Shown here piece after piece: positions 21,867-49,950 of a stretch of 59,090 bases of DNA. Made by a program: the position numbers and the translations under genes. The stretch comes from a virus. Taxonomy: Duplodnaviria; Caudoviricetes. The DNA lies in IMG/VR virus record IMGVR_UViG_3300029309_000035, positions 1-59,090 of that record; one strand, 5' to 3'. The number at the start of each line of letters is the position of its first letter. Position 1 is the first letter of the stretch. The notes under the pieces were generated by a model. It was given only the letters and a program-made list of their open reading frames with translations. It ran no database searches and was not told the origin of the DNA.

Positions 21867-22224
21867 GTATCCATTCTATTGGTATATTTTTTTCAGACCA
21901 GAAAAAATTATTCTTGGTTAGCCACTCACCATAAGTTGTTTTACTTCCTTTGTAAAGTTTTACTTTATAATTTTGTAAAACAAAACGAATATCTAATTCT
22001 GGTTTCTGTTCTTTAATATATAAATGTTTAAACCTATCTTGTTTTGTTAGTCTACCTTTTATCTCAATTATGATTCCATTTGGTAGTATAACATCTGGTA
22101 TGTATGTATGATTTGTTTCGGGAATAATATATTTAATTTTAATGGGTTCGTATTTAAATTTAATTTTTTGTTGTATTAATTCACCACACACTTGCTCTTC
22201 AAATTTTGATCTATACTTTGGCAT
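21778..22224 (-). CDS. T7 endonuclease I-like resolvase
   Basis: YRSKFE, Y.PD..L.NGIIIE.KG, HLYIK...PELDIRFV, SKTTY..W. Confidence 0.9.
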   Translation of the reverse strand: MPKYRSKFEEQVCGELIQQKIKFKYEPIKIKYIIPETNHTYIPDVILPNGIIIEIKGRLTKQDRFKHLYIKEQKPELDIRFVLQNYKVKLYKGSKTTYGEWLTKNNFFWSEKNIPIEWIHERRKERHTQNKNDKYVKNTGRSSSRVKL

Positions 22225-23078
22225 TAAGCAAGATCCTCCATAACATTCGGCTGTTTCTTAACTACGGTTAACCATCGAGGACCACTACTGTAAATAAATT
22301 TTCTTAATCCAGAACCATCATTCACATCTTGCCAACAATCAACTTTGAATGCACAATAACTACATTCAACACTTAGCTTACGATTACCAGATGATCCATC
22401 CTCTACATCCTCATAACAACGAGGGGGTTTATTTTCTTTGTCCGATAAATATTTTTTTAAACTAGCTATTCTTTTTTTTATATCGGGATATTCTTTATTA
22501 TCGGGAGTGCACAAAGCTAAAGCTCCACTTTGTTTATCAATAGCTAAGAATGCTAATTTATTATTACCTTGAGCTTCACCATAAGCTTTTATTTGTGCAA
22601 GATAACCAAACGAATCGTTCTCTCTGTTTAAACTGTTTCCTTTAAATTTTTTAAAACCAAAGTTAGAAGCTGACTTAACATCAACTACCCACCCATCTAT
22701 GTTTGCATCTTGATGTCCGGCTATACCATCAAGTGTTAATTGTTTCTGCTCATCAGTTACAGTATGTCCCGACGTACGAGATAGTAACAACAATAGCTCT
22801 TCAAGTATATGACCATATAGAAATTTTATTTTTACATAAGGTGGTAAATGTTCCCGAAGATCTGGTCTATAAAATTCATACCATAATTGACGAGCCGGTT
22901 TACCAAGACTAGACATACGTAACTTACGGGGTTTATCTTTATTATCTTCTGTAAGACAGGTCTTTATAGATTCACATACATTTTTAGAGAACAAATCAAG
23001 ATCACTTTTTGTGGGTTCTTTGTTGTTGTTATCAAAGAGTTTATAAATATCGTCAACAAGAGTTTTTATATCAGCCAT
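22224..23078 (-). CDS. PD-(D/E)xK (Cas4/RecB-like) exonuclease
   Basis: LRMSSLGKP, GHQDA.ID..VVDVKS, GYLAQ, C-terminal CxxC...C. Confidence 0.8.
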   Translation of the reverse strand: MADIKTLVDDIYKLFDNNNKEPTKSDLDLFSKNVCESIKTCLTEDNKDKPRKLRMSSLGKPARQLWYEFYRPDLREHLPPYVKIKFLYGHILEELLLLLSRTSGHTVTDEQKQLTLDGIAGHQDANIDGWVVDVKSASNFGFKKFKGNSLNRENDSFGYLAQIKAYGEAQGNNKLAFLAIDKQSGALALCTPDNKEYPDIKKRIASLKKYLSDKENKPPRCYEDVEDGSSGNRKLSVECSYCAFKVDCWQDVNDGSGLRKFIYSSGPRWLTVVKKQPNVMEDLA

Positions 23079-23128
23079 AAAAAAAAGGTGGCTAGGAAAA
23101 GTGAGTGAATGAGAAAAACCTAGCCACC
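23079..23128 (-). terminator. intrinsic terminator after ssb with an unusual 22-nt loop
   Basis: 10-bp perfect stem GGTGGCTAGG/CCTAGCCACC followed by U8 on the minus strand. Confidence 0.85.
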
Positions 23129-23156: not shown

Positions 23157-23684
23157 TTAAAAGGGAAGCTCGTCGTCCAAGCTATCTTTATTAACAGCTT
23201 GGCCATTCTTTTGTTGTGGTTTATCATCAGCCGGTGACTCAAACCCACCTTTGACTTTAGGTAAGTCTCCAAGTTCCTCCTTGTACGATACAAGATCTAT
23301 AACTTGCACAGCCTTCAATGCTGAACCCACACCTTTGTTACCGGCAACATCATAATCGTACGTATCAAATAATACATTTACTTTTGATCCGTTACCTATC
23401 AAGGTTGTTTCCGGGATTGGATTCTTTTGAGCATCAACAACTCTAACCGGTGTATTCGTACTACCATCTCTCTTCTTTACTCTTCTCTTGATCTGTATGA
23501 AGTTACCACGATCATCTTCTTTATTCTTAATTCTTTTACCAAGGCCTAACTTTTTTAGTTGTGCCTCAGTTTTAGAATCAACAGCTACGTCAATAGAATA
23601 TATTCCATCCGGATTATAGTCATCAACTGCTGGTTTGTGGACTTTCGCCCAATAAGATATACCACTTATTAAATTAGTTGGCAT
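23157..23684 (-). CDS. ssb: single-stranded DNA-binding protein (T7 gp2.5-like)
   Basis: IGNGSKVNV, L.AVQVIDLV, acidic tail ending DDELPF. Confidence 0.85.
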   Translation of the reverse strand: MPTNLISGISYWAKVHKPAVDDYNPDGIYSIDVAVDSKTEAQLKKLGLGKRIKNKEDDRGNFIQIKRRVKKRDGSTNTPVRVVDAQKNPIPETTLIGNGSKVNVLFDTYDYDVAGNKGVGSALKAVQVIDLVSYKEELGDLPKVKGGFESPADDKPQQKNGQAVNKDSLDDELPF

Positions 23685-23747
23685 AGTTAACTCCTTTTTT
23701 CTTGGTGTCTTTAGTTAGCTAAAGACTATATTAATAATACGATAATT

Positions 23748-23774
23748 AGTATAACATAAGTGTGCAGTTGTCAA
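23748..23774 (-). promoter_or_regulatory. promoter for ssb
   Basis: minus strand TTGACA ... TG-T-TATACT (extended -10; short 15-bp spacer). Confidence 0.5.
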
Positions 23775-30441: not shown

Positions 30442-30679
30442 TTTCTATTGTTTCGTCGTGAACATCAGTTGGCATTCCGTCATTGCATGGTTCACCCCAC
30501 CCTTGACTAAACTTTTCTTCAGCTTCCTCTTCCGTATCAGCTTCCACATAATACTCAAAAGTTGCTGTGCCATAAGTTGTTATCTTAAAAGTTTTATTAG
30601 CACCAGTAGACTTCGTCATTGTTGTCCTCACTTTCTTCTCTTGGTTTTTCATTTTGTCTATGCTCTTGGACATCTTCAT
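30422..30679 (-). CDS. hypothetical protein
   Basis: VEADTEEEA motif; start probably near 30620. Confidence 0.5.
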   Translation of the reverse strand: MKMSKSIDKMKNQEKKVRTTMTKSTGANKTFKITTYGTATFEYYVEADTEEEAEEKFSQGWGEPCNDGMPTDVHDETIESVVEDA

Positions 30680-30962
30680 CTAAAAAATTATACAGTTTAT
30701 CCATTACATAGTTTCTTAGTTCATCTTGCTCGTCATGAGTAAGTTGTCCTTGCCTATTAAAGTAAGCATTTAGTTTATCAAAAATGTATGTGAATTGGTG
30801 GTCTATGAAATCATTATCTTCTGCCACCTCTTCAAAGTTAAACTTGGTAATTGGCTTACCATAAAATAAACAATTACTCATCAGTTCATTATAATTTTTT
30901 TCTATCCTATGGTCTAACTCAGCCCACGTTTTCTCTTGTAGTTTTAAATGTTGGTTACCCAT
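30597..30962 (-). CDS. hypothetical protein
   Basis: RBS GGGGAGTGAGATAATG before ATG 30962. Confidence 0.55.
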   Translation of the reverse strand: MGNQHLKLQEKTWAELDHRIEKNYNELMSNCLFYGKPITKFNFEEVAEDNDFIDHQFTYIFDKLNAYFNRQGQLTHDEQDELRNYVMDKLYNFLDEDVQEHRQNEKPREESEDNNDEVYWC

Positions 30963-31141
30963 TATCTCACTCCCCAATCTTCAGCAATTACTTTTCTGCT
31001 TTCTCGTGTGTTATCATATATTCTAACGTCATATCCCTCCATGCCTTGCACCTCTGCAAATTCATAAGCTTTGGATAAATCGTTAAACTCTCTCTCTTTT
31101 ATTTTATTAGTAGTTTTATATTCTACTGTGTAGCATTTCAT
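30962..31141 (-). CDS. hypothetical early protein
   Basis: RBS AGAAAGTGAGTGAGATTATG. Confidence 0.55.
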   Translation of the reverse strand: MKCYTVEYKTTNKIKEREFNDLSKAYEFAEVQGMEGYDVRIYDNTRESRKVIAEDWGVR

Positions 31142-31158
31142 AATCTCACTCACTTTCT

Positions 31159-31692
31159 TTAATTTTTTATTATATTTTTCATTGATATTTTTTCAATGTA
31201 AAAAGTTTGACTCATTGACAAATCTTTTTTATCTAACAAACCATATCTACGACCAAAAACTACGATACAGCTTGGAAATGGTGCTGAATTTTTAGCATTA
31301 CCAAACTTTAATCTTCCTTTAATGTATCGTATCTGACCATAAATACAGTAGTCATGCCAATACTTCGTATCTGTCCTACTAGGAATTAACATAACAACTG
31401 TACAACCTTTTAAACTTTCTTCGTATGCTTTTTTTACAAACTCACCAATATTTGAATAAGGTGGGTTGCACCATATAAAAGGTTCAAAGTTATTCTCATC
31501 TTTTAATAGCATAGACCAATCATAATTTAAACTGTTATGGTCTTTAGTTGTATAAAATGTTTCTACTTTTGTATTCTCATGACTAGCACATATATCATAA
31601 TCAAACTTAAATTCATTGTTTAATCTATCATATAAATGTTGGGGTGTTTCCCATTCATCAGAATTTTTACTAAATAAAACTTTATCTACCAT
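31159..31692 (-). CDS. dam: phage DNA N6-adenine methyltransferase (Dam family)
   Basis: DEWETP, WCNPPYS, LIPSRTDT..WH, GRLKFG, APFPS motifs. Confidence 0.9.
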   Translation of the reverse strand: MVDKVLFSKNSDEWETPQHLYDRLNNEFKFDYDICASHENTKVETFYTTKDHNSLNYDWSMLLKDENNFEPFIWCNPPYSNIGEFVKKAYEESLKGCTVVMLIPSRTDTKYWHDYCIYGQIRYIKGRLKFGNAKNSAPFPSCIVVFGRRYGLLDKKDLSMSQTFYIEKISMKNIIKN

Positions 31693-31727
31693 TTTTCTCA
31701 CTCACTTTCTTTTATTAATTAATATTA

Positions 31728-32144
31728 TTACAGTTTGGTTATGATGTAAAATGTTTCTCCAAAATCTGTATATTCTTTTATCTGATACCTAGTTTTATGC
31801 TTTCTGATATACTTAATCTTTTCAATCTTGATACATCTGTACGCATTTTTTTCCTGGTCAAATACTTGTAGAATATTATTTTGTTTTAGATTCTTTCTTA
31901 ATCCTAACATGGAATCTCTTTTGCTATATACAAAAGTTCCCTTATCTTTATTAAGATATTTAATTCTATTCTTAATATCTCCAATAAGGTATCTATCAGA
32001 ACCATCAGCTTTGGTAAAACAAACCTGAAGTTTCTTCGTGTTATCTTTATTAATAAGATTAAACAATGCTCTTTTATATTTCTCAATATTAAGAGGAATG
32101 TTTAAACTGTATGTATAGTTTTCTAGTTTAGTTTTTGTTAACAT
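31728..32144 (-). CDS. SH3/WYL-like beta-barrel early protein
   Basis: V.FTKADGSDR...VFD.EK.AYRC motif. Confidence 0.55.
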   Translation of the reverse strand: MLTKTKLENYTYSLNIPLNIEKYKRALFNLINKDNTKKLQVCFTKADGSDRYLIGDIKNRIKYLNKDKGTFVYSKRDSMLGLRKNLKQNNILQVFDQEKNAYRCIKIEKIKYIRKHKTRYQIKEYTDFGETFYIITKL

Positions 32145-32186
32145 TTAATCTCACTTTCTTTTGTTAATGTTAATTGTCTATCTTAA

Positions 32187-32861: not shown

Positions 32862-33023
32862 TTAATAATCCCTTATAAAACTGTATGCAATACAAATAAT
32901 TGCAATCATAAAATATATGAACATGAATATTAAAAATATAGGACTAACCATAATAAGGGCTAGTGATATTATTGATAATATAAAGCATAAAAAACTTGCT
33001 TCTAATAGTTTATAATTTTTCAT
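32862..33023 (-). CDS. 53-aa membrane protein
   Basis: hand-translated MKNYKLLEASFLCFILSIISLALIMVSPIFLIFMFIYFMIAIICIAYSFIRDY; GAGGTG RBS. Confidence 0.5.
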   Translation of the reverse strand: MKNYKLLEASFLCFILSIISLALIMVSPIFLIFMFIYFMIAIICIAYSFIRDY

Positions 33024-33376: not shown

Positions 33377-33667
33377 TTATCTCACTTTCTTTTTTAAGTT
33401 TATTTTTAAATTTGGTTTTTTAAGCCACTCATTCATACTTTTTAGATATAGTTCATCTCTATATGTTTGAATTGCGTTGTCGTAATCGTCGTATATTTGT
33501 TCGTGTCTATACCATTCATTTAATTGACAATCTGAAGTTTTATATTGTTTACTACAATGTCCACAATAAAACCATTTCGTCATATAAGGCATAAAAGTTT
33601 CGTGGTCATGTGGACACACCCACAAATACCCCTCTACTTCTATTTGTATTTTTCTTTTTGTTGTCAT
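33377..33667 (-). CDS. first early gene, Cys-containing hypothetical protein
   Basis: CPHD...CGHC; AGAAAGTGAG RBS. Confidence 0.55.
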   Translation of the reverse strand: MTTKRKIQIEVEGYLWVCPHDHETFMPYMTKWFYCGHCSKQYKTSDCQLNEWYRHEQIYDDYDNAIQTYRDELYLKSMNEWLKKPNLKINLKKKVR

Positions 33668-33742
33668 TTTCTCACTTTCTTTTTTATGTTTAAATGTTTG
33701 TTTTTATGTAATTATTATAAAAACGACTCACTATAATTATGT

Positions 33743-49491: not shown

Positions 49492-49950
49492 ATGATTGAT
49501 CCATTAATGGCTTTTGCTGCATTAAAGACAGCTAGTAGTACAATATCCAGTGCTGTTAAAGCCGGTAAAGATTTAGCTTCTTTAGTTGGTCCTATAACAA
49601 GACTGGCTAAAGCTGAAGCTGATTTATCATTTGCTGCCGAAAAAAAAGGTGGTATACTTGGTAAATTAACGGGAGCTGAGCAGACAGCAATCGATGCTCA
49701 CTTTCGTAAAGAGGAAGCCAACCGTATCCGTGATGAGATGCGAGAACTGTTTATGTTGTTTGGTTCTCCGGGACAGTGGGAAAGACTACAGGCTGAGATA
49801 GCTGCGGAAAGAGTTCGTCGTAAGAAAGCTTTGGAAGCAGAAGCTCGTCGTAAACGTCGACTAAAGAATATGATTATTTTAACATTGTCTTTAGTGACAG
49901 CAATAACTATACTAACACTTGAAATAATGTACTTAAAAGGAGTAATATAA
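49492..49950 (+). CDS. membrane-anchored coiled-coil protein
   Basis: MIDP N-terminus, C-terminal TM helix. Confidence 0.6.
   Translation: MIDPLMAFAALKTASSTISSAVKAGKDLASLVGPITRLAKAEADLSFAAEKKGGILGKLTGAEQTAIDAHFRKEEANRIRDEMRELFMLFGSPGQWERLQAEIAAERVRRKKALEAEARRKRRLKNMIILTLSLVTAITILTLEIMYLKGVI

What the first reader, a model, noticed from the sequence alone, without database searches (positions are those of the whole stretch)
23079..23128. ssb terminator loop is antisense to the shared RBS of early genes: candidate RNA-based early-gene shut-off
Seen: the minus-strand terminator after ssb has a 10-bp perfect stem, U8, and an unusually large loop, 5'-UUUUUCUCAUUCACUCACUUUU-3'. Early minus-strand mRNAs share the initiation motif AGAAAGUGAG. 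Pairings with the loop: dam leader AGUGAGUGAGAAAAA (15 nt, one G:U); 31141 gene AAAGUGAGUGA (11 nt); 33667 gene AGUGAGAAAA (10 nt, one G:U); 33373 and 32144 genes AAAGUGAG (8 nt). The GAGUGAAU/AGUGAAU variants before 28503 and 29507 match the AUUCACUC part of the loop. The loop therefore looks like a composite of the early RBS variants. Inference: the abundant middle-phase ssb transcript (or a 3'-derived sRNA) exposes this loop and silences translation of many early genes at once. That would be a temporal switch needing no phage repressor or RNA polymerase.
Basis: partly seen in the sequence, partly recalled or inferred. Interest (0 to 1): 0.85.

Follow-up and report, generated by a model that had tools for sequence, protein, structure and literature searches.

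The report
Large-loop terminator after phage ssb gene
A conserved hairpin-plus-U8 terminator behind a marine phage's ssb gene carries a loop that could pair with the ribosome-binding box shared by the phage's early genes, but nothing yet shows that it does more than end the ssb transcript and damp the next gene.

Summary
There is a 10-bp perfect stem, a 22-nt unpaired loop and U8 (23128-23079, minus strand), abutting the ATG of a Cas4-like exonuclease gene that has no adjacent SD. It is the only strict terminator-like hairpin in this 59-kb marine phage. AGAAAGTGAG occurs exactly six times, always 3-8 nt before early-gene ATGs. The loop's last 9 nt (CUCACUUUU) complement it.

The loop pairs better than composition-matched shuffles (p about 0.01) and prefers early over late start regions (p about 0.002). 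The pairing part is invariant in all 12 close-relative sequences. More distant clades lack both the hairpin and the box.

But there is no RNA evidence. Most targets pair over only 8-9 nt. The box is by itself a good extended SD and serves as an RBS in unrelated phages. The ssb promoter is the same sigma-70 type as the early promoters.

The hairpin sits where an intermediate relative has the exonuclease SD and start. Best reading: an intrinsic terminator/attenuator that closes a self-contained ssb cassette and throttles the exonuclease. A trans-acting anti-RBS function remains possible (about 0.18).

The parts
23748..23774 (-). sigma-70-type promoter of ssb: TTGACA (23774-23769), 15-nt spacer, TGn plus TATACT (23756-23748)
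   Evidence: Read. The hexamers and TGn are conserved while the spacer varies, in clade A and clade B relatives.
23707..23726 (-). 5' leader hairpin of the ssb mRNA (GUCUUUAG / CUAAAGAC, 4-nt loop)
   Evidence: Fold. Kept in L005 with two G:U pairs where the window has G-C.
23157..23684 (-). gp2.5-like ssDNA-binding protein gene (175 aa) with an AAGGAG SD at 23696-23691
   Evidence: PHROG 112, E 1.9e-14; tblastn hits to annotated phage SSBs.
23127..23138 (-). Relic of the exonuclease start region: SD-like GGGAA (23138-23134), ATG 23130, GTG 23127. It now opens a 12-codon uORF that runs into the hairpin.
   Evidence: Aligns with the SD and ATG GCT start of exo in clade C locus L178; 14 of 17 columns are invariant. 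A uORF is present in 11 of 11 sequences.
23119..23128 (-). 5' arm of the stem, GGTGGCTAGG
   Evidence: invariant in clade A.
23106..23118 (-). 5' part of the loop (UUUUUCUCAUUCA), variable in length and sequence among relatives
   Evidence: Loop lengths are 22, 24, 25, 26 and 26 nt; the indels and substitutions lie here.
23097..23105 (-). 3' part of the loop, CUCACUUUU: complement of (G)AAAGUGAG, the candidate seed
   Evidence: AAAGTGAG on + at 23098-23105. Invariant in all 12 clade-A junction sequences.
23087..23096 (-). 3' arm of the stem, CCTAGCCACC
   Evidence: One C-to-T change in L006 keeps a G:U pair.
23079..23086 (-). U8 tract (U7 in some relatives)
22224..23078 (-). Cas4-domain exonuclease gene. 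Its ATG directly follows U8 and it has no adjacent SD.
   Evidence: PHROG 1990, E 2.9e-41. The N-terminus matches the homologues' starts. Its pairing energy with the assumed 16S tail is +0.6.
33671..33680 (-). Early RBS box AGAAAGTGAG before ATG 33667
33381..33390 (-). Early RBS box before ATG 33373
32150..32159 (-). Early RBS box before ATG 32144 (WYL_2 protein), behind TTGACA-18-AATAAT
31701..31710 (-). Early RBS box (extended GTGAGTGAG) before ATG 31692 (Dam)
31149..31158 (-). Early RBS box (extended GTGAGTGAG) before ATG 31141, behind TTGAAA-16-TATAAT
30627..30636 (-).

Best explanation
The element is a Rho-independent terminator/attenuator that closes a self-contained ssb expression cassette. 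The cassette runs: conserved sigma-70 extended -10 promoter, 5' leader hairpin, strong SD, ssb, then a 10-bp GC-rich hairpin with U8.

In this clade the hairpin was placed inside what had been the start region of the downstream Cas4-like exonuclease gene. The old SD and start survive at its 5' foot, and the present ATG follows U8. Inferred consequences: most ssb transcripts end here, with a protected 3' end; the exonuclease is made only from read-through RNA and is initiated poorly.

Shown: the structure, its uniqueness in the genome, its conservation, the promoter, and the position relative to the old start. Inferred: termination itself and the step-down in exonuclease expression.

The sequence-conserved 3' half of the loop (CUCACUUUU) is not explained by this role. 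It is either an added function (see the rivals) or a CUCA microsatellite carried along.
For: - Stem of 10 bp with 7 GC pairs, -18.6 kcal/mol, z = -7, followed at once by U8, on the coding strand 28 nt after the ssb stop.
- It is the only strict terminator-like hairpin in 59 kb.
- The stem arms vary at 1 of 20 columns, against 204 of 434 third-codon columns, among six clade-A sequences. That one change gives G:U.
- The promoter hexamers upstream of ssb are conserved across clades A and B while the spacers vary.
- Clade B couples ssb to exo by a TAATG overlap or a 6-nt gap. Clade C has a 48-nt spacer with its own SD and no U-tract hairpin. So the hairpin is a clade-A insertion.
- The clade C exo SD and start align with the 5' foot of the hairpin.
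- The present exo ATG has no SD; its energy with the assumed 16S tail is +0.6.
- From general knowledge: SSB is needed stoichiometrically and a nuclease catalytically, which fits a step-down between them.
Against: - The loop of 22-26 nt is far above the 3-8 nt usual for intrinsic terminators, so efficiency may be low.
- No 3'-end or RNA data exist.
- This role gives no reason for the invariance of CUCACUUUU in 12 of 12 sequences while the 5' part of the loop varies.
- It also gives no reason why the loop is the best transcriptome-wide complement of the long early box.
Confidence: 0.6

Rival explanations
1. The ssb transcript, or a 3'-derived fragment ending at U8, displays the loop. Its CUCACUUUU box, plus upstream CUCA repeats, pairs in trans with the AGAAAGUGAG box of the early mRNAs. 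This blocks 30S binding and/or triggers decay, and so shuts off many early genes at once. This can coexist with the terminator role.
For: - The real loop beats 1000 shuffles: best energy p = 0.008, sum of the best six p = 0.011, early-minus-late p = 0.002.
- Five of the 6 box-bearing start regions pair more strongly with the loop than with the assumed 16S tail, against 23 of 70 others.
- The loop is the top site of 29,534 windows for the long box, and the third locus for the short box.
- The seed is invariant in 12 of 12 clade-A sequences while the 5' part of the loop varies.
- The box precedes 31 early genes across the window and six clade-A loci. Of the 25 box-preceded genes in those six loci, 13 have no homologue in the window. 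This is a regulon-like shared target.
- Clades B and C lack both the hairpin and the box.
- The hairpin plus U tail is the usual 3' module of base-pairing sRNAs (general knowledge).
Against: - There is no RNA evidence at all.
- Both partners are invariant, so no compensatory change exists.
- The co-occurrence is a single evolutionary contrast.
- Four of the six targets reach only 8-9 bp, at -10.8 to -12.2 kcal/mol, about equal to their pairing with the 16S tail.
- Shuffled U/C-rich loops already reach a mean of -16.5, and the count of strong targets is not significant (p = 0.147).
- The best short-box site is inside a late gene at 49697.
- The box works as an RBS in unrelated phages that show no such loop.
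- The ssb promoter is of the same type as the early promoters, so delayed expression is not indicated.
- The finding was selected after the fact.
Confidence: 0.18
2. A cis translational device for the exonuclease. The old SD (GGGAA) and start at the 5' foot of the hairpin still recruit ribosomes. There are two possible routes. In the first, the folded hairpin is looped out so that the old SD serves the ATG after U8 (a split RBS). In the second, ribosomes translate the 12-22-codon uORF through the hairpin, melt it, stop near the exo ATG and re-initiate. This replaces the TAATG coupling seen in relatives. Translation through the stem would also oppose termination.
For: - The SD-like block and ATG are conserved even where the upstream spacer is deleted or replaced, and they align with the clade C exo SD and start.
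- A uORF is present in 11 of 11 sequences. Its stop begins between -16 and +11 of the exo A(+1) in every loop-length variant.
- exo has no SD of its own, and relatives rely on coupling.
Against: - The uORF peptide and frame are not conserved.
- Stops are frequent in this AT-rich sequence, so their proximity may be chance.
- The start codon's G is the first base of a -18.6 kcal/mol stem, which should hinder initiation.
- The effective SD-to-ATG spacing with the hairpin looped out is 5 + 8 = 13 nt, longer than the usual optimum.
- This does not explain conservation of the loop sequence.
Confidence: 0.25
3. The conserved pyrimidine-rich loop is a protein-binding platform. Candidates are ribosomal protein S1, the phage SSB acting on its own message, or the early WYL_2/Sm-like protein. 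Binding would tune termination, mRNA stability or exo translation. On this reading the complementarity to the early box is incidental.
For: - The loop is 22-26 nt, unstructured and U/C-rich in all three folded haplotypes.
- The 3' half of the loop is conserved.
- An early gene encodes a WYL_2 Sm-like SH3 barrel (PF10902, E 2.6e-08) and is kept in relatives.
- Autoregulation of ssDNA-binding proteins on their own mRNAs is known for T4 gp32 and the M13 gene V protein (recalled, not checked here).
Against: There is no direct evidence. No binding motif is known for any of these proteins in this system. Nothing ties the CUCA repeats to a protein.
Confidence: 0.08

Closest known systems
Rho-independent (intrinsic) terminators used as intra-operon attenuators
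   Same: A GC-rich stem followed directly by a U7-8 tract, on the coding strand after a highly expressed gene, with downstream genes dependent on read-through.
   Different: The loop is 22-26 nt instead of 3-8. The loop sequence is conserved. The U tract abuts the next start codon.
Staphylococcus aureus RNAIII C-rich hairpin loops that mask Shine-Dalgarno sequences of several mRNAs (PMC2837412; abstract and passages read)
   Same: A pyrimidine-rich hairpin loop in the 3' domain of an abundant RNA pairs with the RBS of several target mRNAs and blocks initiation. One loop serves many targets through a shared signature.
   Different: The motif here is CUCAC(UUUU), not UCCC. The carrier would be an mRNA 3' end. 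No binding, RNase III involvement or repression has been shown.
Phage P1/P7 c4 antisense RNA (review PMC12197685; passages read)
   Same: A phage-encoded trans-acting RNA whose loop sequences are complementary to the ribosome-binding region of a phage mRNA and block its translation.
   Different: c4 serves immunity in a temperate phage and has one target (ant). Here a lytic-type phage would silence many early genes. Processing of the RNA is unknown.
T4 RegB endoribonuclease (PMC1702504, abstract seen in the listing)
   Same: Early phage mRNAs are inactivated through a short motif in their shared SD (GGAG). This is the same logic of switching off early genes via a common RBS signature.
   Different: RegB is a protein nuclease helped by S1. 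Here the proposed effector is an RNA loop, and no RegB-like gene was looked for.
PeSL mobile regulatory cassettes of T4-type phages (PMC2839356 and PMC4122927; titles and abstract starts seen)
   Same: A short conserved regulatory sequence recurs at the borders of otherwise unrelated small early genes in a mosaic region.
   Different: Here the conserved unit is the RBS box itself (about 13 nt), not a promoter plus stem-loop. Shuffling through it is inferred, not shown.
Hairpins between the SD and the start codon in T4 genes 38 and 25
   Same: An SD-like element lies upstream of a stable hairpin, with the start codon downstream of it.
   Different: The effective spacing here would be about 13 nt. 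The hairpin is also a terminator. It is unknown whether the old SD is used.

Membership tests
Intrinsic (Rho-independent) terminator | Stable GC-rich stem | tested here: met
   10 bp with 7 GC pairs, -18.6 kcal/mol, z = -7.0.
Intrinsic (Rho-independent) terminator | U-rich tract directly after the stem | tested here: met
   U8 in the window, U7-U8 in relatives.
Intrinsic (Rho-independent) terminator | Short loop (about 3-8 nt) | tested here: not met
   The loop is 22 nt in the window and 24-26 nt in relatives. The built-in scan with loops of 3-8 nt does not list it.
Intrinsic (Rho-independent) terminator | Transcripts end in the U tract | not testable with these tools
   No RNA run holds the phage.
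Base-pairing sRNA or 3'-end-derived riboregulator | Conserved single-stranded seed complementary to the target start regions | tested here: met
   CUCACUUUU is unpaired, invariant in 12 of 12 sequences, and complementary to 6 window boxes and 25 relatives' boxes.
Base-pairing sRNA or 3'-end-derived riboregulator | Pairing beyond composition-matched controls | tested here: met
   p = 0.008 to 0.011 for the best energy and the sum of six; p = 0.002 for early versus late. The count of strong targets gives p = 0.147.
Base-pairing sRNA or 3'-end-derived riboregulator | Compensatory covariation of seed and target | tested here: inconclusive
   Both sides are invariant in clade A. The one loop change (C to U in the window) gives G:U outside the seed.
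Base-pairing sRNA or 3'-end-derived riboregulator | A discrete, expressed RNA species that represses its targets | not testable with these tools
   No RNA holder is listed. The host is unknown.
RNAIII/Rsa-type C-rich loop anti-SD regulators | UCCC-type motif in the loop that pairs with the GGGA/GGAG core of the SD | tested here: not met
   The loop has no CCC or CCUCC. It pairs with AAAGUGAG, not with canonical SDs. The mean loop energy is -5.4 for the 70 start regions without the box.
Known RNA families (Rfam 15) | Match to a curated covariance model | tested here: not met
   The only hit is a spurious lncRNA match: E 0.47, 18.7 bits against a gathering score of 80.
Split-RBS hairpin (T4 gene 38/25 type) | SD upstream and start codon downstream of a hairpin, with near-optimal effective spacing | tested here: inconclusive
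   The SD-like GGGAA lies 5 nt before the stem and the ATG 8 nt after it. The effective spacing of 13 nt is longer than the optimum. Use of the SD is untested.

The most novel reading that the evidence does not exclude
The 3' end of the ssb message is a phage riboregulator. The terminator loop carries an anti-RBS box (CUCACUUUU plus CUCA repeats) that titrates or silences a whole set of mosaic early-gene cassettes through their shared AGAAAGUGAG ribosome-binding box. It would be an RNA counterpart of T4 RegB-type early shut-off, in an abundant marine phage lineage that shows no T7-type RNA polymerase match.
Probability: 0.18. Interest if true: 0.75.

Novelty: new member of a known kind. Interest (0 to 1): 0.4.

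Why it matters
If the loop acts only in cis, this is an ordinary terminator. It is still a tidy example of how one phage clade rebuilt the ssb-exonuclease junction: translational coupling gave way to a terminator inserted into the downstream gene's start region.

If the loop acts in trans, it would be a one-RNA switch that turns off a whole class of early genes through their common ribosome-binding box. It would sit in an uncultured marine phage group related to pelagiphages. Post-transcriptional control by lytic phages through their own RNAs is little documented.

The hypothesis is cheap to test: reporter fusions with seed mutations and compensatory mutations.

The shared 13-nt start-region box in front of unrelated early cassettes is also worth noting in its own right.

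Tried and rejected
- RNAcofold of a 67-nt 3' fragment with each start region. It cannot represent pairing to a closed hairpin loop, so it opened the stem or paired the flanks. I did not use it as evidence.
- RNA evidence: no RNA holder is listed.
- Four DNA runs were laid as contigs. They showed only T8-to-T7 and a +2-nt insertion in the 5' part of the loop. 1354 difference rows were not shown, so nothing can be said about the seed from that call.
- Rfam: no family.
- Stem pattern in IMG/VR: 16 stretches. Nine are clade-A contigs. The other seven (L016, L017, L019, L022, L024, L026, L027) have unrelated loops and contexts.
- The CTCA-repeat 17-mer in IMG/VR: 10 stretches. Seven are clade A and three (L057-L059) are unrelated.
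- An inverted duplication of an early leader as the origin of the loop: blastn-short found only 11-15-nt matches, E about 1. Neither supported nor excluded.
- A plus-strand promoter or ORF in the hairpin. The promoter-like match scores 9/12 and its -10 region is deleted in L002. The 4-codon ATG exists only in the window. Rejected.
- A conserved uORF peptide: rejected, because frames differ.
Most were single, probably chance, hits.
- G001 (the record that holds L012) has no AAAGTGAG, but it lacks the early region, so this is uninformative. L005's record is not held.
- The PF00940 search of the window found nothing, but it rang in none of the 14 control genomes, so it is weak evidence.
I therefore could not fetch longer clade-A contigs that link loop haplotypes to early regions.
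- Supplementary files of papers were not consulted.

Full report
**What the window is.** The window is a complete 59,090-base virus record. Its nearest cultured relatives are Pelagibacter phages HTVC103P, HTVC104P and HTVC115P, with DNA polymerase about 46% identical and SSB about 42%. Minus-strand genes run from about 35.6 kb down to 17.3 kb. They are: small early ORFs, primase/helicase, DNA polymerase, a gp2.5-like SSB (23684-23157), a Cas4-domain exonuclease (23078-22224), an endonuclease and ribonucleotide reductase. No T7-type RNA polymerase match was found, but that search rang in none of the 14 control genomes either.

**The observation.**
- The minus strand reads GGTGGCTAGG, a 22-nt loop, CCTAGCCACC, T8 and then the exonuclease ATG.
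- The hairpin folds at -18.6 kcal/mol (z = -7.0, 0 of 200 shuffles as good), with the loop fully open. The same holds for two relatives' versions.
- Under a strict scan it is the only terminator-like hairpin on either strand of the genome. The built-in scan, which allows loops of 3-8 nt, found nothing convincing in 17-36.9 kb: 12 hits against 8.4 +/- 3.2 in shuffles.
- AGAAAGTGAG occurs six times exactly. All copies are on the minus strand between 30.6 and 33.7 kb, each 3-8 nt before an ATG. One of these genes is a Dam methylase and one a WYL_2 protein.

**Is it more than chance?**
- The 8-mer AAAGTGAG occurs 8 times on both strands, against 2.85 expected. The copies are the six start regions, the antisense copy in the loop, and one inside a late gene at 49697. 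One antisense copy somewhere is therefore expected. What is unusual is that it lies in this loop.
- I compared the loop with 1000 mononucleotide shuffles against 76 start regions. The real loop has a better best energy (-22.2 against -16.5 +/- 1.9; fraction as extreme 0.008). It has a better sum of the best six (0.011) and a larger early-minus-late difference (0.002). The number of targets at or below -14 kcal/mol is not unusual (0.147).
- Shuffled U/C-rich loops already pair well with the A/G-rich start regions.
- In a scan of 29,534 22-nt windows of the transcribed strands, the loop is the best site for the long box shared by the dam and 31141 leaders (-17.3). It is the third locus for the short box (-11.2). 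The best short-box site is the late-gene site at 49697 (-13.7).
- Allowing for after-the-fact selection, I put the coincidence probability at a few per cent.

**Relatives.**
- Clade A (SSB 86-100% identical) comprises 11 other contigs and the window, 12 junction sequences in all. L031 is identical to the window over this junction.
- All twelve carry the hairpin with the same stems; one C-to-T change gives G:U. There are five loop versions of 22-26 nt. The last 17 nt are CTCACTCACTCACTTTT in four versions, and the window has one C-to-T change. CTCACTTTT next to the 3' arm is invariant. The 5' part of the loop carries indels and substitutions.
- Among six aligned sequences, 204 of 434 third-codon columns vary. 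Only 1 of 20 stem columns and 2 of the 17 3'-loop columns vary. So both the stem and the 3' half of the loop are under constraint. The neighbouring 5' foot and the first exo codons are also well conserved.
- Clade B (SSB about 55%, including contigs of 56-90 kb with 10 kb of upstream sequence) has no hairpin. There ssb and exo overlap (TAATG) or lie 6 nt apart. All its early genes use AAGGAG-type SDs, and AAAGTGAG is absent.
- Clade C (L178; primase 71%, SSB 65%) also lacks both features.
- Hairpin and box therefore appear together on one branch. This is consistent with a link, but it is only one contrast.

**The early box.**
- In further clade-A early regions the box precedes 8 (L254), 6 (L255), 3 (L256), 3 (L258), 2 (L259) and 3 (L175) genes, always 2-10 nt before an ATG.
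- Of these 25 genes, 13 have no homologue in the window.
- One gene that has a canonical SD in the window (33023) carries the box in relatives.
- The box is therefore a shared 5' border of mosaic early cassettes, reminiscent of PeSL cassettes in T4-type phages (PMC2839356; title and abstract start only).
- It is also a plausible strong SD. Read as AGAAAG[U]GAG, it pairs with a ...CCUCCUUUCU 16S tail at -9.6 to -12.5 kcal/mol, as well as canonical SDs here do.
- The same 10-mer serves as an RBS in unrelated IMG/VR phages, for example six times in L135 and three times in L061. The box therefore does not by itself call for a dedicated regulator.

**What the hairpin is in its context.**
- ssb has its own promoter: TTGACA, a 15-nt spacer, then TGn and TATACT or TATAAT. 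The hexamers are conserved and the spacers vary across clades A and B.
- It also has a small 5' leader hairpin.
- Together with the hairpin and U8, this makes a self-contained ssb cassette.
- The 5' foot of the hairpin (GGGAAUAAAUGGUGGCUA) aligns with the exonuclease SD and ATG GCT start of clade C; 14 of 17 columns are invariant across both clades. RTGGCT occurs again at the present start after U8.
- The hairpin was therefore placed inside the old exonuclease start region. The present ATG has no SD.
- The old SD and ATG 23130 now open a uORF of 12-22 codons. In 11 of 11 sequences it ends between -16 and +11 of the exo start, in varying frames.

**Mechanism.**
- The best-supported reading is an intrinsic terminator/attenuator. 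It would end and stabilise the ssb message and let only read-through RNA, with a poor start region, make the exonuclease. Termination and the expression step-down are inferred, not shown.
- A cis translational relay through the old start region is a compatible addition (0.25).
It rests on no RNA evidence. Most targets pair over only 8-9 bp. There is one evolutionary contrast. The timing premise is unsupported, because the ssb promoter is of the same sigma-70 type as the early promoters (0.18).
- A protein-binding loop is possible (0.08).

**Comparison with known systems.** In function, the trans model resembles three known systems.
- S. aureus RNAIII, whose C-rich hairpin loops mask the SDs of several mRNAs (PMC2837412; abstract and passages).
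- The P1/P7 c4 antisense RNA, whose loop sequences pair around an RBS (review PMC12197685; passages).
- T4 RegB, which inactivates early mRNAs at the GGAG of their SDs (PMC1702504; abstract in the listing).

Phage-encoded Hfq-dependent sRNAs were recently described for lambda (bioRxiv 10.1101/2024.10.31.621285; abstract and section 17). My one search on this topic listed no paper describing a terminator-loop anti-RBS that shuts off a lytic phage's own early genes. That single search does not show it is absent from print.

**Verdict.** The most likely role is ordinary: a terminator/attenuator with an unusually large loop. Interest is 0.4, mainly because the trans model is specific, was not refuted, and is cheap to test.

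Noticed in passing
window 23748-23774 (minus strand): ssb has its own sigma-70-type extended -10 promoter (TTGACA, 15-nt spacer, TGn, TATACT). The hexamers are conserved and the spacers variable in clades A and B, a pattern that supports a real promoter.
   Followed up: partly
window 23707-23726 (minus strand): An 8-bp hairpin with a 4-nt loop lies in the ssb 5' leader. It is kept in L005 with two G:U pairs where the window has G-C. It may be a 5' stabiliser.
   Followed up: partly
L254 2230-5142; L255, L256, L258, L259, L175: The box (A)nAGAAAGTGAG precedes 25 early genes in clade-A relatives, and 13 of these have no homologue in the window. It is a conserved start region at the borders of mosaic cassettes, PeSL-like.
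   Followed up: partly
window 31728-32144 (minus strand): An early gene encodes a WYL_2 Sm-like SH3-barrel protein (PF10902, E 2.6e-08). It is conserved at 86-98% in relatives. It may bind nucleic acid and could bear on RNA-level control.
   Followed up: no
window 49697-49706 (plus-strand RNA): A second near-perfect complement of the early box (CUCACUUUCG) lies inside a late gene. It is the best short-box site in the transcriptome scan and is probably chance.
   Followed up: no
window 32865-33023 versus L254 3259, L255 3103, L258 2884: The same 53-aa gene has a canonical SD (GAGGTGG) in the window but the AGAAAGTGAG box in three relatives. Start regions are therefore exchanged between the two types.
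   Followed up: no
L036 1-10000, L042, L035 (clade B early regions): A repeated motif TATATATAGTTATA (up to 8 copies of its 9-mers) lies in the early region of clade B phages. It may be a phage-specific promoter or a cassette border.
   Followed up: no
L258 about 2226-2262: A hairpin AGGTTGCA / TGCAACCT with a 20-nt loop lies directly upstream of a box-bearing start region. It is another large-loop hairpin in this clade.
   Followed up: no
L175/L032 282-912 versus window 30962-32144: The Dam gene of the window (31692-31159) is absent from the 38-kb clade-A relative. There the WYL_2 gene is followed directly by the 31141 homologue. That relative's loop also lacks the UUUUUCUC stretch that pairs with the dam leader's GAGAAAAA. 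This is a single case.
   Followed up: partly
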